Shown here: positions 34,254-40,254 of the stretch, piece by piece
Numbering within the stretch: the stretch's first letter is position 1
Layout: each line of letters opens with the position of its first letter
Assembly: GCA_019057795.1 (NCBI GenBank)
Contig: JAHLWS010000075.1
Coordinates: forward strand, 32,001 to 96,000
Direction of reading: 5' to 3'
Source: Promethearchaeota archaeon
Lineage (GTDB): Archaea; Asgardarchaeota; Lokiarchaeia; Sigyniarchaeales; SOKP01
DNA: 64,000 nucleotides
The notes under the pieces: generated by a model
Databases searched by the model: none
Seen by the model: the letters and a program-made list of their open reading frames with translations, nothing else
Told to the model about the DNA's origin: nothing
Position numbers and translations under genes: made by a program

Positions 34254-34685
34254 TTATCCGATATACTTCAATCCAACTATATCAAATATCCTTGAAAAAT
34301 CTTGTATGTCTTGAGTATAGACTTCTGTAATTCCATGAGCTAACGCAATTCCAGCAATTTGACAATCCTTTTCTTTAATAGTTATTCCCTTTCCTTGTGA
34401 TTGCGCATAAATATCTGCTGCTTTTTCAGCAGATTCTCTTGTAAAGTTAAGAATTCCACACTTTAAAAGGAATTTATCATAAGCTGCTAATAACTCTGGA
34501 ACCTTGGAGGGTCTACCCCCTTTTAGGTATAGATTAGCAACGATTCCTGTATAGATCTCATAAATAGATATTGTAGATGTAAAAATAGGAATTTTGTTTT
34601 TTATATATTCTCGTATTTTTTCAACAATTAATGTATCTTCTTTTAAGAAACCAATAATGATGTTAATGTCTATTAAAACGGCCAT
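34254..34685 (-). CDS. vapC: VapC PIN-domain toxin
   Basis: LIDINIII, SIYEIY and DCQIAGIA motifs; downstream of the antitoxin. Confidence 0.88.
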   Translation of the reverse strand: MAVLIDINIIIGFLKEDTLIVEKIREYIKNKIPIFTSTISIYEIYTGIVANLYLKGGRPSKVPELLAAYDKFLLKCGILNFTRESAEKAADIYAQSQGKGITIKEKDCQIAGIALAHGITEVYTQDIQDFSRIFDIVGLKYIG

Positions 34686-34686
34686 T

Positions 34687-34920
34687 TTATATCAATTTAA
34701 TATCAATTTCTTCTTCATGTATTTTTTTTACGATTTTTTCAACTAAATCCAAAGCAGGCTCTACATCACTGATTTTTTTCCAAGCCCCAGCTAAATCTAG
34801 AATATCAGCGTTAGATTCTAGTAATCTTTTTATCGCCTCTGAGAAACTTTCATTCTTTAATCGATACTTGTCGAGTTGATTATAGATTTCTTCCTTTATT
34901 GAAATTGATCGTGATGGCAT
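34687..34920 (-). CDS. vapB: VapB-type antitoxin (DUF217-like)
   Basis: SISIKEEIYNQL...ESFSEAIKRL...LAGAW. Confidence 0.85.
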   Translation of the reverse strand: MPSRSISIKEEIYNQLDKYRLKNESFSEAIKRLLESNADILDLAGAWKKISDVEPALDLVEKIVKKIHEEEIDIKLI

Positions 34921-35162: not shown

Positions 35163-37175
35163 TTAACCTACTTCGACATCCATTTTCTTGCGCTCTTCAA
35201 GCAATACATCGACTATTGAAGGATCGGCTAAGGTCGTAACATTACCGATTTCTGTACCTGAAGCTATGGCCTTCAAAATCCTGCGCATAATCTTACCGCT
35301 TCTCGTCTTTGGCAAGGCATCAGCAAATTGAATTACGTCCGGCTGAAATACTGGACCTATCTCTTGTCTAACATGCATACGAATTTCTTTCGATAACTTC
35401 GCTGATTTTTCAATGCCGCCCATTAATGTCACGAACGCCCAAATAGCTTGTCCCTTTATTTTATGCGGAAAGGGTGCTATGGCAGCTTCCGCTACCTTTG
35501 GATGGCTCACTATAGCAGATTCTACTTCCATTGTTCCTATGCGGTGTCCAGATACCTTAATAACATCGTCTAATCGTCCAAGGATCCAATAATAGCCATC
35601 GTCATCTGTTCGTGCTCCATCACCAGTGTAATAATGCCCTGGATATTTTTCGAGATAAGTTGATTTAAATCTCTCAGTATCTCCCCAAACATCACGTAAC
35701 ATACCCAGCCAGGGTGTTTGAATTGCAAAGTAACCACCTTCGTTTGGCTCGGTGATTTCATCACCTTCTAAGTCAAAAATAACTGGTTTGATGCCGAAAA
35801 AAGGCATACAACAGGATCCTGGCTTTGTAGGTGTTGCTGTAGCAATTGGTGTCATGATAAAGCCGCCCGTTTCTGATAGCCAATGTACTCGAAATGATTA
35901 CATTTTTTGCCAGTATGTATCTACTATCGGGCAGCGCTCTTTACCAACAACTCTATGATACCATGTCCATGCTTCGGGATTTATTGGTTCTCCAACAGTA
36001 CCTAGGACTTTTAATGAGCTTAGGTCGTGCCTATTTACTGGTTCATCACCGTGTCTCATTAAAGCACGTATTGCAGTAGGTGCTGTATAAAATTGGTTGA
36101 CTTTATGGCGTTCTACAATGTCCCAAAAACGATCTACATCAGGATATGTTGGAACGCTTTCAAACATTAAAGTAGTTGCTCCATTTGCCAACGGACCATA
36201 TATGATATAACTATGACCAGTTATCCAACCTATGTCTGCAGTACAATACCAAACCTCGCCTTCCTTGTAGTTGAATACGACTCTATGAGTGAAGGATGTG
36301 TATAAGATATATCCGGCTGTTGTGTGTTTAACGCCTTTAGGCTTTCCTGTGGTGCCGCTTGTATAGAGTAAAAATAGTGTATCTTCGGAGTCCATTTCTT
36401 CGGGTTCGCACTCGTCGCTCATTCCATCGATAAAATCATCATACCAGATGTCTTTATCTGTGTGAGGGACTTCGTTTCCTGAACGCTTAACGACAATAAC
36501 ATGTTCAATTGTAGGCACATCATCAATAATCTTAACGACATCAGCCATTTTTGGGTAAGTCTTACCAGCTCGTAAAGTTTCGTCACTTGTAAACAATAGT
36601 CGCGAATCAGAATCTTTCACTCTATCTTTCACAGCTTCTTTCGAAAATCCACCGAATACTATGGAATGAATCACGCCGATTCGGGCACAGGCTAGCATTA
36701 TTATCGCTAATTCGGGAATCATTGGTAACCAAATGGTTACTCTATCGCCCTTTTTCAGTCCGAAATCTCTCATACCGTTAGCTACTTTACTTACTTCTTT
36801 TAAAAGCTCGGTATATGTGAATTTTCTCACTTGTCCGGGTTCATCCGCTTCCCATATAATAGCGACGCGATCTCCATTGCCTGCTTTCACATGTCTGTCA
36901 AGGCAATTGTAGGCTACGTTAAGTTTTCCGCCAACAAACCATTTACCAGGGAACAGATCGGTTTTTTCCCATACTTTATCGTATGGTTTAATCCAATCGA
37001 TTGATTTAGCTTGTTCGTCCCAGAACCCTTCCATATCTTCGATGGATCGTTTATATAACTTCTGATATTCATCCATTGACATTCCAGTTTTCGCATAGTC
37101 GGGACTGACATCTACAGGGTTAAATATCCGATTTTCAGTGAGTACACTTTTCATTTTTGTGTCTTTTTCTGACAT
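35163..37175 (-). CDS. acs: Acetyl-CoA synthetase (AMP-forming), interrupted by a 30-nt in-frame insert containing TAA; 660 aa if the insert is removed
   Basis: YTSGTTGKPKG, TADIGWITGHSY, DTYWQ|TETGG and PKTRSGKIMRR motifs. ORFs 35898-37175 and 35163-35855 are in the same frame. Confidence 0.92.
35876..35905 (-). other. Candidate BHB-type intron in acs mRNA
   Basis: Minus-strand sequence AAATGTAATCATTTCGAGTACATTGGCTAT forms a hairpin; removing it gives TGG CAA ACA GAA ACG GGC GGC. Confidence 0.65.
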
Positions 37176-38346: not shown

Positions 38347-40254
38347 ATGGGCCAAATTGAATCGTTAGACGGGGAATGGCGGGAAAAATGGAAAGATAAA
38401 GAAATTACCGCAAAAGGAGCCATAAAGAAGATTGTTCTTGGGAATCGTGTATTCATAGGTTCTGCGTGTTCGGAGCCTCAAGCGCTTACTGCTGAATTAA
38501 TTAAATCTTCTGAAAGCTTGATTGATACGGAGATCATACATTTTCTTACGATTGGTCCTGAAAAATACTTTAAAGATAAAGCGGAAGATCTTTTTAGACA
38601 TAACGCTTTTTTCATAGGTAAAACCCTACGAGAGGAGATAAATAAAGGGCAAGCTGACTATACACCAATATTAGCGAGCGAAATTCCTTCTTTATTTCTT
38701 TCAGGGCGTAAAAATTGCGATGTTGCTCTTATTCAAGTCACACCACCAGATCGTTATGGTTTTTGTTCGTTTGGGATTAACATTGATGTAGCTAAACCCA
38801 TAGCCCAAGCTGCTTATTTAACAATAGCTGAAATTAACCCTCAAATGCCCCGGACCTTGGGTAATAGCTTCATTCACATGAAAGACATCGACTATTTCGT
38901 TTACAACGATGTGCCACTGTTAGAGTTCCAATTTAAAGAAAAAATTGATGTTTCGAGAAAAATTGGAAAGAATGTGGCAAATTTAATTGAAAATAAATCG
39001 ACAATTCATATTGGTAACGGTTATTTACCGAACGCCTGCTTAAAATATTTAATGAATAAAAAAGATTTAGGCATGCATAGCCACTATATTACTGATAATA
39101 TAATTCCTTTGATAGAAAACACAGTTCTAACTTGTAGAAAGAAGAATTTTCACCCTGAAAAGATTATAACAAGTTTTGCATTAGGTACTAAAAAGTTATA
39201 TGACTTCGTAAATAACAACCCGTATATTGAGTTTTATCCTAGTGACTATGTATGTAATCCAAAATACATTGGAATGAACAAAAAAATGGTTTCTATAAAT
39301 CAAGCGTTGCAAATTGATTTAACAGGGCAAGTTAATACTTCTACTAAAGGGTATAACTTTTATTCTGGAATTGGGGATACGGTAGATTTCATGAGGGGGG
39401 CTGCTTTTTCTAAAGGTGGAAAACCGATTGTTGTACTTTCGTCAACAAGAAAAAATGAGACCGTTTCAAATATTGTACCCCATTTAGATGAAGGTGCTGG
39501 TGTAATTTTATCTCGAGCAGACATTCATTACGTAGTTACCGAATGGGGGATCGCTTATGTGCACGGTAAGACAATTAGAGAGCGAGTAATTGAATTAATT
39601 TGCGTAGCTCACCCTAAATTTAGAGAACAGTTGTTAGAACACGCGAAAAAGTTGAATTACATTTATTCGGATCAAATTCTACCTTGCGACGAGCAAGGAA
39701 ATATATGTATTTATCCTTCTAAGTATGAAACTATATACACCGCAAGAGATAACGAAAAAATCGTAGTTAGACCAGTTAGAACCACTGACGAGCCTTTATT
39801 AAAAGAACTTTATTATTCCTTAAACGAGAGAGATAGGTATTTACGCTTTTTTGAAGTTAGGAAGGAATTCACTCATTCTAAAACACAAAGTGAAGTAAAT
39901 ATCGATTATAACAATGTATTTTCTATAGGAGCGTATGTGGGAGAGATCAGAAACGAAGCGATGGTAGGAAATGCTACTTATTATTTAAATCCCGCCATGA
40001 ATTTAGCAGAATATAGTTTTGTAGTAAGAGAGGATTATAGAGGAAAAGGCATAGGTTCCTTTCTCTATCACCATTTAATTATCATCGCGAAAGAAAAAGG
40101 GATAAAAGGATTTTATGGCAGCATTCACATTCAAAATAAAAGCACAGTCCAAATTATCCGAAAAGGAGGATATACTAAAATTAATCCACCTAAAGTGGGT
40201 GAAAAAGAATTGTTTTACGAAGTGTATTTTGACAAGGAGAATTCGATGGATTAA
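38347..40254 (+). CDS. Acetyl-CoA hydrolase/transferase-like domain fused to a GNAT acetyltransferase
   Basis: AEINPQMPRTLG, DFMRGA..SKGGK and VVTEWGIA motifs; GNAT part DRYLRFF and YRGKGIG. Confidence 0.88.
   Translation: MGQIESLDGEWREKWKDKEITAKGAIKKIVLGNRVFIGSACSEPQALTAELIKSSESLIDTEIIHFLTIGPEKYFKDKAEDLFRHNAFFIGKTLREEINKGQADYTPILASEIPSLFLSGRKNCDVALIQVTPPDRYGFCSFGINIDVAKPIAQAAYLTIAEINPQMPRTLGNSFIHMKDIDYFVYNDVPLLEFQFKEKIDVSRKIGKNVANLIENKSTIHIGNGYLPNACLKYLMNKKDLGMHSHYITDNIIPLIENTVLTCRKKNFHPEKIITSFALGTKKLYDFVNNNPYIEFYPSDYVCNPKYIGMNKKMVSINQALQIDLTGQVNTSTKGYNFYSGIGDTVDFMRGAAFSKGGKPIVVLSSTRKNETVSNIVPHLDEGAGVILSRADIHYVVTEWGIAYVHGKTIRERVIELICVAHPKFREQLLEHAKKLNYIYSDQILPCDEQGNICIYPSKYETIYTARDNEKIVVRPVRTTDEPLLKELYYSLNERDRYLRFFEVRKEFTHSKTQSEVNIDYNNVFSIGAYVGEIRNEAMVGNATYYLNPAMNLAEYSFVVREDYRGKGIGSFLYHHLIIIAKEKGIKGFYGSIHIQNKSTVQIIRKGGYTKINPPKVGEKELFYEVYFDKENSMD

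What the first reader, a model, noticed from the sequence alone, without database searches (positions are those of the whole stretch)
35862..35935. Candidate bulge-helix-bulge mRNA intron in an Asgard acetyl-CoA synthetase gene
Seen in sequence: the minus strand reads ...UAC UGG CAA A|AAAUGUAAUCAUUUCGAGUACAUUGGCUAU|CA GAA ACG GGC GGC. The 30-nt insert (35876-35905) is in frame and carries a UAA, while both halves of acs are otherwise intact. The fold has an intron stem AAUGUA/UACAUU (plus UC/GA), a 3-nt bulge AAA, and a 4-nt central helix GGCA/GGCU (G.U, G-C, C-G, one A.G mismatch). It continues with a 3-nt bulge AUC, a short exon stem CU/AG, and a distal 8-bp GC-rich exon-exon stem GCUGCCCG/CGGGCGGC (35928-35935 with 35862-35869). 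Established: the archaeal splicing endonuclease EndA cuts BHB motifs after the 2nd nt of each bulge, and crenarchaeal cbf5 is the precedent for a BHB intron in mRNA. Applying that rule gives WQTETGG, the conserved ACS motif, so the structure and the protein conservation point to the same junctions. Inference: EndA/RtcB-type splicing of a central-metabolism mRNA, possibly acting as an on/off switch because the unspliced form stops early.
Basis: partly seen in the sequence, partly recalled or inferred. Interest (0 to 1): 0.93.

Follow-up and report, generated by a model that had tools for sequence, protein, structure and literature searches.

The report
tRNA-type mini-intron in Asgard acs gene
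The acetyl-CoA synthetase gene of this Asgard (Promethearchaeota) archaeon is broken by a 30-base insert shaped like a tRNA intron, and comparison with relatives indicates it is cut out of the messenger RNA, a kind of splicing published so far for essentially one archaeal protein gene (cbf5).

Summary
A 30-nt in-frame insert with a UAA (35876-35905, minus strand) splits acs inside the WQTETGG motif.

The bulge-helix-bulge (BHB) intron reading is strongly supported by comparison, but splicing was not seen in RNA.
- Seven different 30-nt inserts sit at exactly this site in related genomes. Their hairpin keeps pairing through compensatory changes.
- Relatives carry similar 30-32-nt inserts at four other conserved acs motifs. 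nadE and elf1 of this genome have one each.
- In 16 of 17 instances the best BHB register out of 44-50 ranks first, and it yields the conserved peptide in all but one (G000 nadE gives DSG, not DGG).
- After removal, every allele reads open to its natural end or to the contig end. dN/dS is 0.03-0.045, the same as for intron-less alleles.
- The genome encodes a crenarchaeal-type EndA catalytic subunit, a second EndA paralogue and RtcB.

Weak points:
- The central helix here has 3 of 4 pairs plus A.G.
- The BHB fold is not the minimum-energy fold.
- The one RNA contig lacking the 30 nt probably comes from an intron-less relative.
- Nothing supports the proposed on/off switch.

This scan has already reported such mini-introns in other genes of this genome and other Asgard genomes. 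I found no paper describing them.

The parts
35906..37175 (-). acs exon 1 (codons 1-423 plus the first base of the Thr codon)
   Evidence: ORF 35898..37175. Pfam ACAS_N plus AMP-binding profile positions 6-321 of 384.
35876..35905 (-). 30-nt BHB-type mini-intron, in frame, with TAA at 35898-35900
   Evidence: About 20 same-genus alleles lack it. Seven sequence variants sit at the same site.
35163..35875 (-). acs exon 2 (last two bases of the Thr codon, ETGG... to the stop at 35163-35165)
   Evidence: Pfam AMP-binding_C. After removal of the insert the ORF is 660-662 codons, like intron-less relatives.
35908..35911 (-). Central helix H, exon strand GGCA
   Evidence: Pairs with 35878-35881 as G.U, G-C, C-G, A.G. 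The first three pairs are kept in 8 of 8 alleles, with only G-C/G.U swaps. The fourth is paired only in G018.
35878..35881 (-). Central helix H, intron strand GGCU
   Evidence: The variants GGCU, UGUC, AGCU and GGUU all keep pairing to the exon GGC.
35905..35907 (-). 5' bulge AA|A; predicted cut between 35906 and 35905
   Evidence: The cut rule is in PMC2738675.
35875..35877 (-). 3' bulge AU|C; predicted cut between 35876 and 35875
35882..35904 (-). Intron hairpin h' (arms 35899-35904 and 35882-35887; inner UC/GA at 35896-35897 with 35889-35890)
   Evidence: 9 alignment pairs. 6 show changes on both sides, and 90% of cells are paired.
35912..35913 (-). Exon helix h, 5' strand CU (pairs with AG at 35873-35874)
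   Evidence: Paired in 8 of 8 alleles (C-G or U.G, and U-A). The Thr codon is ACA in all intron-bearing alleles.
35928..35935 (-). Distal exon-exon stem, 5' strand GCUGCCCG (pairs with 35862-35869)
   Evidence: Present in the MFE fold. The core UGCCC/GGGNG is kept in most intron-bearing alleles. The Cys codon is UGC in 6 of 6 intron-bearing alleles that have Cys, against 2 of about 17 intron-less ones.
35862..35869 (-). Distal exon-exon stem, 3' strand CGGGCGGC

Best explanation
The 30 nt at 35876-35905 are an archaeal bulge-helix-bulge (BHB) mini-intron in the acs pre-mRNA.

Inferred mechanism: the transcript folds so that the last exon-1 bases (GGCA) pair with the 3' part of the intron (GGCU). 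On one side lies the intron hairpin, and on the other lie exon-exon pairs (CU/AG and a distal GC-rich stem). This presents two 3-nt bulges. The splicing endonuclease, made of an EndA catalytic subunit and a second EndA paralogue (the broad-specificity two-subunit type), cuts after the 2nd base of each bulge: 35906|35905 and 35876|35875. RtcB joins the exons to UGG CAA ACA GAA ACG, which encodes WQTETGG and gives a full-length 660-aa Acs.

Shown here: the anatomy, its conservation and covariation, the exact match between structure-predicted cuts and the conserved protein, selection on the exons, and the presence of the enzymes.

Inferred, not shown: cleavage, ligation and the spliced RNA.

The intron belongs to a family of 30-32-nt mini-introns that occupy conserved motifs of acs (five sites), nadE and elf1 in this genus, with a patchy distribution that suggests gain and loss.
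For: (1) Same-site inserts of 30 nt occur in G009, G003, G023, G018, GCA_019058395.1, ERZ23498458 and GCA_016839905.1, with 7 distinct sequences. About 20 same-genus alleles lack the insert.

(2) Covariation: 6 of 9 h' pairs change on both sides. The H partners change only between C and U opposite G. Overall 81.5% of cells are paired against 31-53% when slid, and 0 of 500 shuffles match.

(3) Relatives carry inserts at four other acs motifs: CTAD|IGW (31-32 nt), YY|YTGDG (32 nt), QF|YTAP (30 nt) and GEPIN|PEAW (30 nt). nadE (GYFTKYGD|GG, 30 nt) has one in G000, G016 and G035.

(4) Register test: in 16 of 17 instances the top BHB score among 44-50 registers is the ORF-restoring one, and in 16 of 17 it gives the conserved peptide (DI, Y, QFY, INP, DGG, WQT). 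H is 4/4 at sites A, C, D and nadE.

(5) Some inserts shift the frame (31 or 32 nt), some carry stops at different codons and some have none, so the inserts are not read as protein.

(6) After excision every allele is open to its natural end or to the contig end. dN/dS is 0.032-0.045 between intron-bearing alleles and 0.029-0.035 between intron-less ones.

(7) Enzymes: the EndA-like protein on C69 has its best solved relatives in the Aeropyrum, Sulfolobus and Pyrobaculum catalytic subunits. There is a second EndA paralogue on C74, and RtcB on C70. Asgard archaea are reported to have (alpha-beta)2 EndA with the L1 loop (PMC5829648).

(8) elf1 of the same genome has a canonical 32-nt BHB insert that restores FTCPN|CGEK.
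Against: - No spliced RNA of this allele was seen. The metatranscriptome contig that lacks exactly 35876-35905 is 94.5% identical and carries a variant at 35712-35720 that is found in intron-less relatives (G020, G002), so it probably comes from an intron-less organism.
- In G000 the central helix has only 3 standard pairs plus A.G, and an alternative pair U35912-A35877 competes with the 3' bulge.
- The BHB fold is not the minimum-energy fold: -22.6 kcal/mol with the BHB core enforced against -29.1. A competing helix GAUAGU/GCUAUC exists.
- The exon helix next to the 3' bulge is only 2 bp.
- All site-B introns are exactly 30 nt, which an intron does not require.
Confidence: 0.85

Rival explanations
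1. The insert is a recent inactivating insertion. On this reading acs of this organism is a pseudogene or is made as two non-functional fragments, and the BHB-like fold is incidental.
For: There is an in-frame TAA. No spliced RNA of this allele was seen. A distant acs-like paralogue (32% identity) exists on C21 and might cover the function.
Against: - G000 and G009 share the insert, yet their exons differ at dS 0.24 with dN/dS 0.042.
- Deeper intron-bearing pairs give dN/dS 0.03-0.045.
- No other stop or frameshift is present in any of 9 intron-bearing alleles once the inserts are removed.
- Inserts persist with compensatory changes.
Confidence: 0.04
2. The insert is removed or skipped by a route other than EndA/RtcB. 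Candidates are ribosomal bypassing (as in T4 gene 60), another RNA nuclease acting on the hairpin, or excision at the DNA level.
For: A stable hairpin lies directly after the break, as in gene 60. The G000 BHB is relaxed.
Against: - There are no matching take-off and landing codons at sites A, B or C (reading).
- The complementarity between the exon-1 end and the intron 3' end, at the exact distance that puts both junctions after the 2nd bulge base, recurs at six unrelated sites. BHB recognition explains this; bypassing does not.
- The insert is present in the DNA assemblies.
Confidence: 0.06
3. The intron is spliced by EndA/RtcB, and in addition it works as a regulated on/off switch of Acs synthesis.
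For: The unspliced mRNA of G000 would stop early. acs lies head-to-head with a GNAT-CoA-transferase fusion (38347-40254), which hints at tight control of Acs (unchecked note).
Against: - Close relatives do without the intron.
- Four of seven variants have no stop.
- Similar inserts sit in unrelated genes (nadE, elf1), which fits selfish or neutral elements better than gene-specific regulation.
Confidence: 0.1
4. Assembly or sequencing artefact.
For: None found.
Against: Two DNA runs hold all sampled words of the gene. Same-site inserts occur in 8 or more independent assemblies from different studies.
Confidence: 0.005

Closest known systems
BHB intron in the cbf5 (pseudouridine synthase) pre-mRNA of Crenarchaeota (Watanabe 2002; Yoshinari 2006; Yokobori 2009, PMC2738675)
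   Same: - It is a short intron inside a protein-coding sequence, at a conserved catalytic motif.
- It has a relaxed BHB, with cuts between the 2nd and 3rd bulge residues.
- The host has a two-subunit (hetero-oligomeric) EndA.
- Its distribution is patchy, with gain and loss.
   Different: - The host gene differs (acs, central metabolism) and so does the phylum (Asgard/Promethearchaeota).
- There are five alternative intron sites in one gene, up to three in one allele, and further genes are hit in the same genome.
- The size is uniform at 30-32 nt.
- Splicing is experimentally shown for cbf5 but not here.
Archaeal pre-tRNA and pre-rRNA BHB introns (Marck and Grosjean 2003), including the heavily interrupted tRNA genes of Asgard archaea (PMC11291895; bioRxiv 10.64898/2026.10.13.758758)
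   Same: The hBHBh' architecture, the enzymes (EndA, RtcB) and the intron-rich lineage are the same. ARAGORN finds only 18 tRNAs in this 100%-complete genome, which fits many disrupted tRNA genes.
   Different: The substrate is an mRNA, so exon pairing has to be built from codons. The exon helix is short and is helped by a distal stem.
Transposed tRNA introns of Thermoproteales (Fujishima and colleagues; from my own knowledge, not read here)
   Same: Related intron sequences occur at different sites. Here the loop motif CAUUU(A/C)GA is shared by introns at acs sites B, C and E.
   Different: Those are in tRNA genes. Here the targets are conserved protein motifs, and a patch of exon sequence seems to travel with the intron.
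HAC1/XBP1 unconventional mRNA splicing (IRE1 cleavage, RtcB or Trl1 ligation)
   Same: It is non-spliceosomal splicing of a coding mRNA at RNA-structure-defined sites, with ligation by the tRNA ligase.
   Different: The nuclease is IRE1, the motif is two 7-nt loops, the process is regulated by stress, and it is eukaryotic. No IRE1-type element was looked for or seen here.

Membership tests
Archaeal BHB intron (EndA substrate) | Two 3-nt bulges on opposite strands, separated by a 4-bp helix | tested here: met
   The feature is met in relaxed form in G000: AAA / GGCA:GGCU (3 pairs plus A.G) / AUC. It is 4/4 in G018 at this site, and 4/4 at acs sites A, C, D and in nadE. Relaxed motifs are accepted by (alpha-beta)2 EndA according to PMC5829648.
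Archaeal BHB intron (EndA substrate) | Cuts between the 2nd and 3rd bulge residues give the functional mature RNA | tested here: met
   The rule is stated in PMC2738675. Applying it gives WQTETGG here and, except in G000 nadE (DSG for DGG), the conserved peptide in the other 16 instances. The best register ranks first in 16 of 17.
Archaeal BHB intron (EndA substrate) | Flanking helices: h' within the intron and h between the exons | tested here: met
   h' is 6-9 bp, with compensatory changes in 6 of 9 pairs. h is 2 bp and is kept in 8 of 8 alleles. The distal GC stem is partly kept.
Archaeal BHB intron (EndA substrate) | The host encodes the splicing endonuclease and an RNA 3'-phosphate ligase | tested here: met
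   There are two EndA-family ORFs of 200 and 201 aa. The first is most like crenarchaeal catalytic subunits (3p1z_B, 3ajv_B, 2cv8). RtcB scores 561 bits.
Archaeal BHB intron (EndA substrate) | The intron is absent from the mature RNA (spliced junction, excised circle) | tested here: inconclusive
   One metatranscriptome contig lacks exactly the 30 nt, but it carries a variant typical of intron-less relatives. The single call allowed for laying reads was used.
Archaeal BHB intron (EndA substrate) | Cleavage by the cognate EndA in vitro | not testable with these tools
   This needs a bench experiment.
Group I / group II self-splicing introns | A ribozyme core of hundreds of nucleotides | tested here: not met
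   The insert is 30 nt.
Intein | An in-frame, stop-free insert encoding a splicing domain of more than 100 aa | tested here: not met
   The insert is 10 codons long and contains TAA. Other sites have 31-32 nt inserts.
Programmed translational bypassing (T4 gene 60 type) | Matching take-off and landing codons flanking the gap | tested here: not met
   No matched codon pair restores the conserved peptide at sites A, B or C (reading).

The most novel reading that the evidence does not exclude
These inserts are a family of mobile ~30-nt BHB mini-introns. They colonise conserved motifs of protein-coding genes in Promethearchaeota: five sites in acs, plus nadE and elf1 checked here, and other genes according to notes of this scan.

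On this reading they spread between alleles by gene conversion that carries short exon flanks along. The tRNA-splicing enzymes would then act as a general mRNA-splicing system in the closest archaeal relatives of eukaryotes.
Probability: 0.5. Interest if true: 0.88.

Novelty: new member of a known kind. Interest (0 to 1): 0.72.

Why it matters
In the literature I could search, splicing of an archaeal protein-coding message by the tRNA-splicing enzymes is documented for cbf5 only. PMC2738675 states that it had not been confirmed for any other gene.

Here a central-metabolism gene of an Asgard archaeon needs such splicing to be read. Relatives show a whole set of alternative intron sites in the same gene. 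If confirmed in RNA, this has three consequences:
- Interrupted protein genes, and a protein-based mRNA cut-and-join system, would be routine in the archaeal lineage closest to eukaryotes. That bears on ideas about how split genes were tolerated before the spliceosome.
- Gene callers split or truncate these genes. Public annotations of the relatives list acs as two or three ORFs, so metabolic reconstructions of Asgard MAGs may wrongly score such genes as broken.
- The patchy distribution, together with the flank patch, offers a tractable case for studying how BHB introns move.

Tried and rejected
(1) Collection scans for more site-B introns. I set the variable gap to 17-25 where 26-27 was needed, so the 7 and 47 hits are chance matches in unrelated organisms. 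Both scans were wasted and no conclusion is drawn from them.

(2) RNA evidence. Contig X17 lacks exactly the 30 nt, but searches show it carries the G020/G002-type variant at 35712-35720. I do not count it as splicing. An X16 RNA contig ending at 35909 is uninformative.

(3) Genome-wide BHB-plus-ORF scan of G000. The strict and relaxed scans gave 432 and 3247 candidates, dominated by adjacent co-directional genes in AT-rich DNA. The paralogue filter gave no clean positives. Only acs and nadE stood out by eye. My thresholds (at least 70 codons on both sides) miss small and multi-intron genes such as elf1, so this is not a census.

(4) P0001 and P0003 contigs. P0001 is an intron-less G005-type allele. 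P0003 (Logan SRR31155649) has the site-A intron only. Neither is evidence of splicing.

(5) An alternative register with the H strand UGGC pairing G(C/U)(U/C)A gives 4/4 pairs in all alleles. Under the cut rule, however, it predicts a 32-nt excision and a frameshift, so I rejected it as the cutting register. It remains a competing pair (U35912-A35877).

(6) A homing endonuclease next to acs. None is present in the window: the neighbours are a VapBC pair and an ABC transporter. Only the GCA_019058395.1 locus has a LAGLIDADG_3 neighbour.

Full report
**What is there.** On the minus strand of the window, an acetyl-CoA synthetase gene runs from 37175 to 35163. Read straight through it gives ...CPIVDTYWQKM*SFRVHWLSETGGFIMTP.... 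It is therefore broken, inside the most conserved AMP-forming synthetase motif, by 30 in-frame nucleotides (35876-35905) that carry a TAA. Pfam places ACAS_N and AMP-binding positions 6-321 on the upstream piece and AMP-binding_C on the downstream piece.

**Organism and enzymes.** The window lies on contig C75 of a 4.95-Mb, 87-contig genome. A public source names a close acs homologue 'Promethearchaeota archaeon', an Asgard lineage.
- The genome has two EndA-family ORFs of 200 and 201 aa.
- The first EndA ORF is most similar to the catalytic subunits of the Aeropyrum, Sulfolobus and Pyrobaculum enzymes (3p1z_B, 3ajv_B, 2cv8_A, 2zyz_B).
- The second EndA ORF aligns to the N-terminal half of fused EndAs and weakly to beta-subunit models.
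- RtcB is present at 561 bits.
- This matches the published statement that Asgard archaea have the (alpha-beta)2 EndA with the L1 loop. That is the type able to cut relaxed BHB motifs (PMC5829648).

**The insert is real and recurrent.** In a search of 60 related genomes, most same-genus acs genes are uninterrupted 662-codon ORFs reading DTYWQTETGG. G009, G003, G023 and G018 carry a 30-nt insert at exactly the same phosphodiester. Fetching contigs for short C-terminal Acs gene calls added three more: GCA_019058395.1, ERZ23498458 and GCA_016839905.1. That gives seven different sequences at one site, from independent assemblies, so an artefact is excluded. Three variants contain a stop, at different codons, and four contain none. 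The insert is therefore not under selection as protein.

**Structure and covariation at this site.** The eight alleles align without gaps over 106 nt.
When the 3' partners are slid by 1-3 columns the figure is 31-53%, and no shuffle out of 500 reaches the observed pairing or covariation score.
- Six of the nine hairpin pairs show changes on both sides.
- The three core pairs of the central helix are kept in all alleles. The intron-side bases change only between C and U opposite exon G.
- The fourth central pair is A.G in seven alleles and A-U in G018.
- The 2-bp exon helix is kept in 8 of 8 alleles.
- The Thr codon is ACA in every intron-bearing allele. The Cys codon upstream is UGC in all six that have Cys, against 2 of about 17 intron-less alleles. 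This fits a constraint from the distal exon-exon stem, or co-inheritance of the flanks.

**Other sites give the strongest argument.** Relatives carry similar inserts at four further conserved acs motifs:
- CTAD|IGWITGH, 31-32 nt, frame-shifting, in G023, G018, GCA_019058395.1 and SRR31155649.
- YPGxYY|YTGDG, 32 nt, in G018 and G007.
- QF|YTAPTAIR, 30 nt, in ERZ23498458.
- GEPIN|PEAW, 30 nt, in ERZ23498458 and GCA_016839905.1.

In G000 itself, nadE is split at GYFTKYGD|GG by 30 nt. The Pfam NAD_synthase profile covers positions 4-143 before the insert and 145-242 after it. G016 and G035 have a different insert at the same place, and about 30 genus members have none.

For each of 17 instances I scored every register of the observed insert length over 44-50 positions for BHB quality (pairs in H, h' and h).
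- In 16 of 17 the ORF-restoring register ranks first.
- In all but one it yields the conserved peptide. This holds even where only 1 of 4-10 in-frame registers does so: Y at site C, QFY at site D, DGG in nadE of G016, and WQT in G000. G000 nadE gives DSG rather than DGG.
- H is 4/4 at sites A, C, D and nadE.

The cut rule used, between the 2nd and 3rd bulge residues, is the one stated for cbf5 (PMC2738675). Structure and protein conservation thus point independently to the same junctions at six unrelated sites. I also confirmed a canonical 32-nt BHB insert in elf1 of this genome (H CCAA/UUGG), which restores the zinc-ribbon FTCPN|CGEK.

**The genes are alive.** After removal of the inserts, every intron-bearing acs allele is open to its natural stop or to the contig end.
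- Pairwise dN/dS between intron-bearing alleles is 0.032-0.045. Between intron-less alleles it is 0.029-0.035.
- G000 and G009 share an identical intron, while their exons differ at dS 0.24 with dN/dS 0.042.
- This rules out a decaying pseudogene. It also means the inserts must be neutralised before or during translation.

**Distribution and possible mobility.** On an acs nucleotide tree, site-B introns occur in the deepest branches and, within the shallow clade, only in G000 and G009.
- In the 80 nt around the junction, G000 is only 67/80 identical to its closest intron-less relatives, against 0.93 elsewhere (Fisher p about 0.003-0.007).
- In the same 80 nt it is 72/80 and 71/80 identical to the distant intron-bearing G003 and GCA_016839905.1. 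Its intron-less sisters are 64/80 and 63/80 identical to those two alleles.
- This suggests the intron arrived with a short exon tract by gene conversion. Convergent selection for exon pairing is an alternative.
- Introns at different sites share the loop motif CAUUU(A/C)GA: site B in G000 and G023, site C in G018, and site E in GCA_016839905.1. That hints at a common origin.

**What is not shown.**
- I had one call to lay reads. A 1649-nt metatranscriptome contig lacks exactly 35876-35905. It is 94.5% identical and has the AACTTTGAGCAA variant at 35712-35720, seen in the intron-less G020 and G002 but not in G009. It most likely comes from an intron-less relative.
- In G000 the BHB is relaxed.
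- The BHB-enforced fold is about 6.5 kcal/mol above the minimum-energy fold, which uses a competing GAUAGU/GCUAUC helix.
- No evidence bears on regulated splicing.

**Known or new.** Full-text searches found no paper on BHB introns in Asgard protein-coding genes. What they found was:
- the cbf5 work;
- a Haloferax EndA substrate study;
- reports of very intron-rich Asgard tRNA genes (PMC11291895; bioRxiv 10.64898/2026.10.13.758758).

Notes of this scan (unchecked AI notes) report the same kind of mini-intron in rpl11, thiolase, Fe-S protein, acr3 and elf1 genes of this genome, and in other Asgard genomes. Two of them claim RNA support. I verified only elf1.

**Verdict.** By mechanism it is a new member of the cbf5-type class, and it is part of a larger, apparently unpublished pattern. 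The decisive missing piece is allele-specific RNA evidence or an EndA cleavage assay.

Noticed in passing
G000:C69:3647-3676 (minus) = L041:848-877: nadE (NAD synthase) of the same genome is split at GYFTKYGD|GG by a 30-nt BHB-type insert ending in TAG (H GGUG/CACU, 4/4). G016 and G035 have a different insert at the same site. The predicted mature codon in G000 is Ser (GDSG) where relatives have Gly.
   Followed up: yes
L034, L035, L028, L128, L129, L130, L136 (acs of relatives): There are four further intron sites in acs, all in conserved motifs (CTAD|IGW, YY|YTGDG, QF|YTAP, GEPIN|PEAW), 30-32 nt long. One allele can hold up to three. Public gene calls list these genes as two or three separate ORFs.
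   Followed up: yes
window 35889-35897; L035 site C; L034 site B; L130 site E: Introns at different acs sites share the loop motif (U)CAUUU(A/C)GA. This suggests they descend from one mini-intron that moved between sites.
   Followed up: partly
window 35836-35945 (exon flanks of the intron): The exon flanks of G000 and G009 resemble distant intron-bearing alleles more than the closest intron-less relatives (67/80 against 0.93 elsewhere). The patch includes an R/K difference in GKE(R/K)CP. It may be a conversion tract carried with the intron.
   Followed up: partly
G000:C70, L133:1475-1506: elf1 carries a canonical 32-nt BHB insert (H CCAA/UUGG, bulges AC|A and AU|U) that splits the zinc-ribbon motif FTCPN|CGEK.
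   Followed up: partly
whole genome G000: ARAGORN finds only 18 tRNA genes, 11 of them with introns, in a genome scored 100% complete. Most tRNA genes are probably too interrupted to be recognised.
   Followed up: no
window 34254-34920 (minus): A VapB antitoxin / PIN-domain VapC pair lies directly downstream of acs.
   Followed up: no
L128:3233-4726 (GCA_019058395.1): In this relative, the gene convergent to the two-intron acs is a 497-aa protein with a LAGLIDADG_3 match (29.7 bits). No such neighbour exists in the window.
   Followed up: no
window 38347-40254 (+): A CoA-transferase-like/GNAT fusion gene lies head-to-head with acs. It is conserved next to acs in the relatives fetched (L128-L130).
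   Followed up: no
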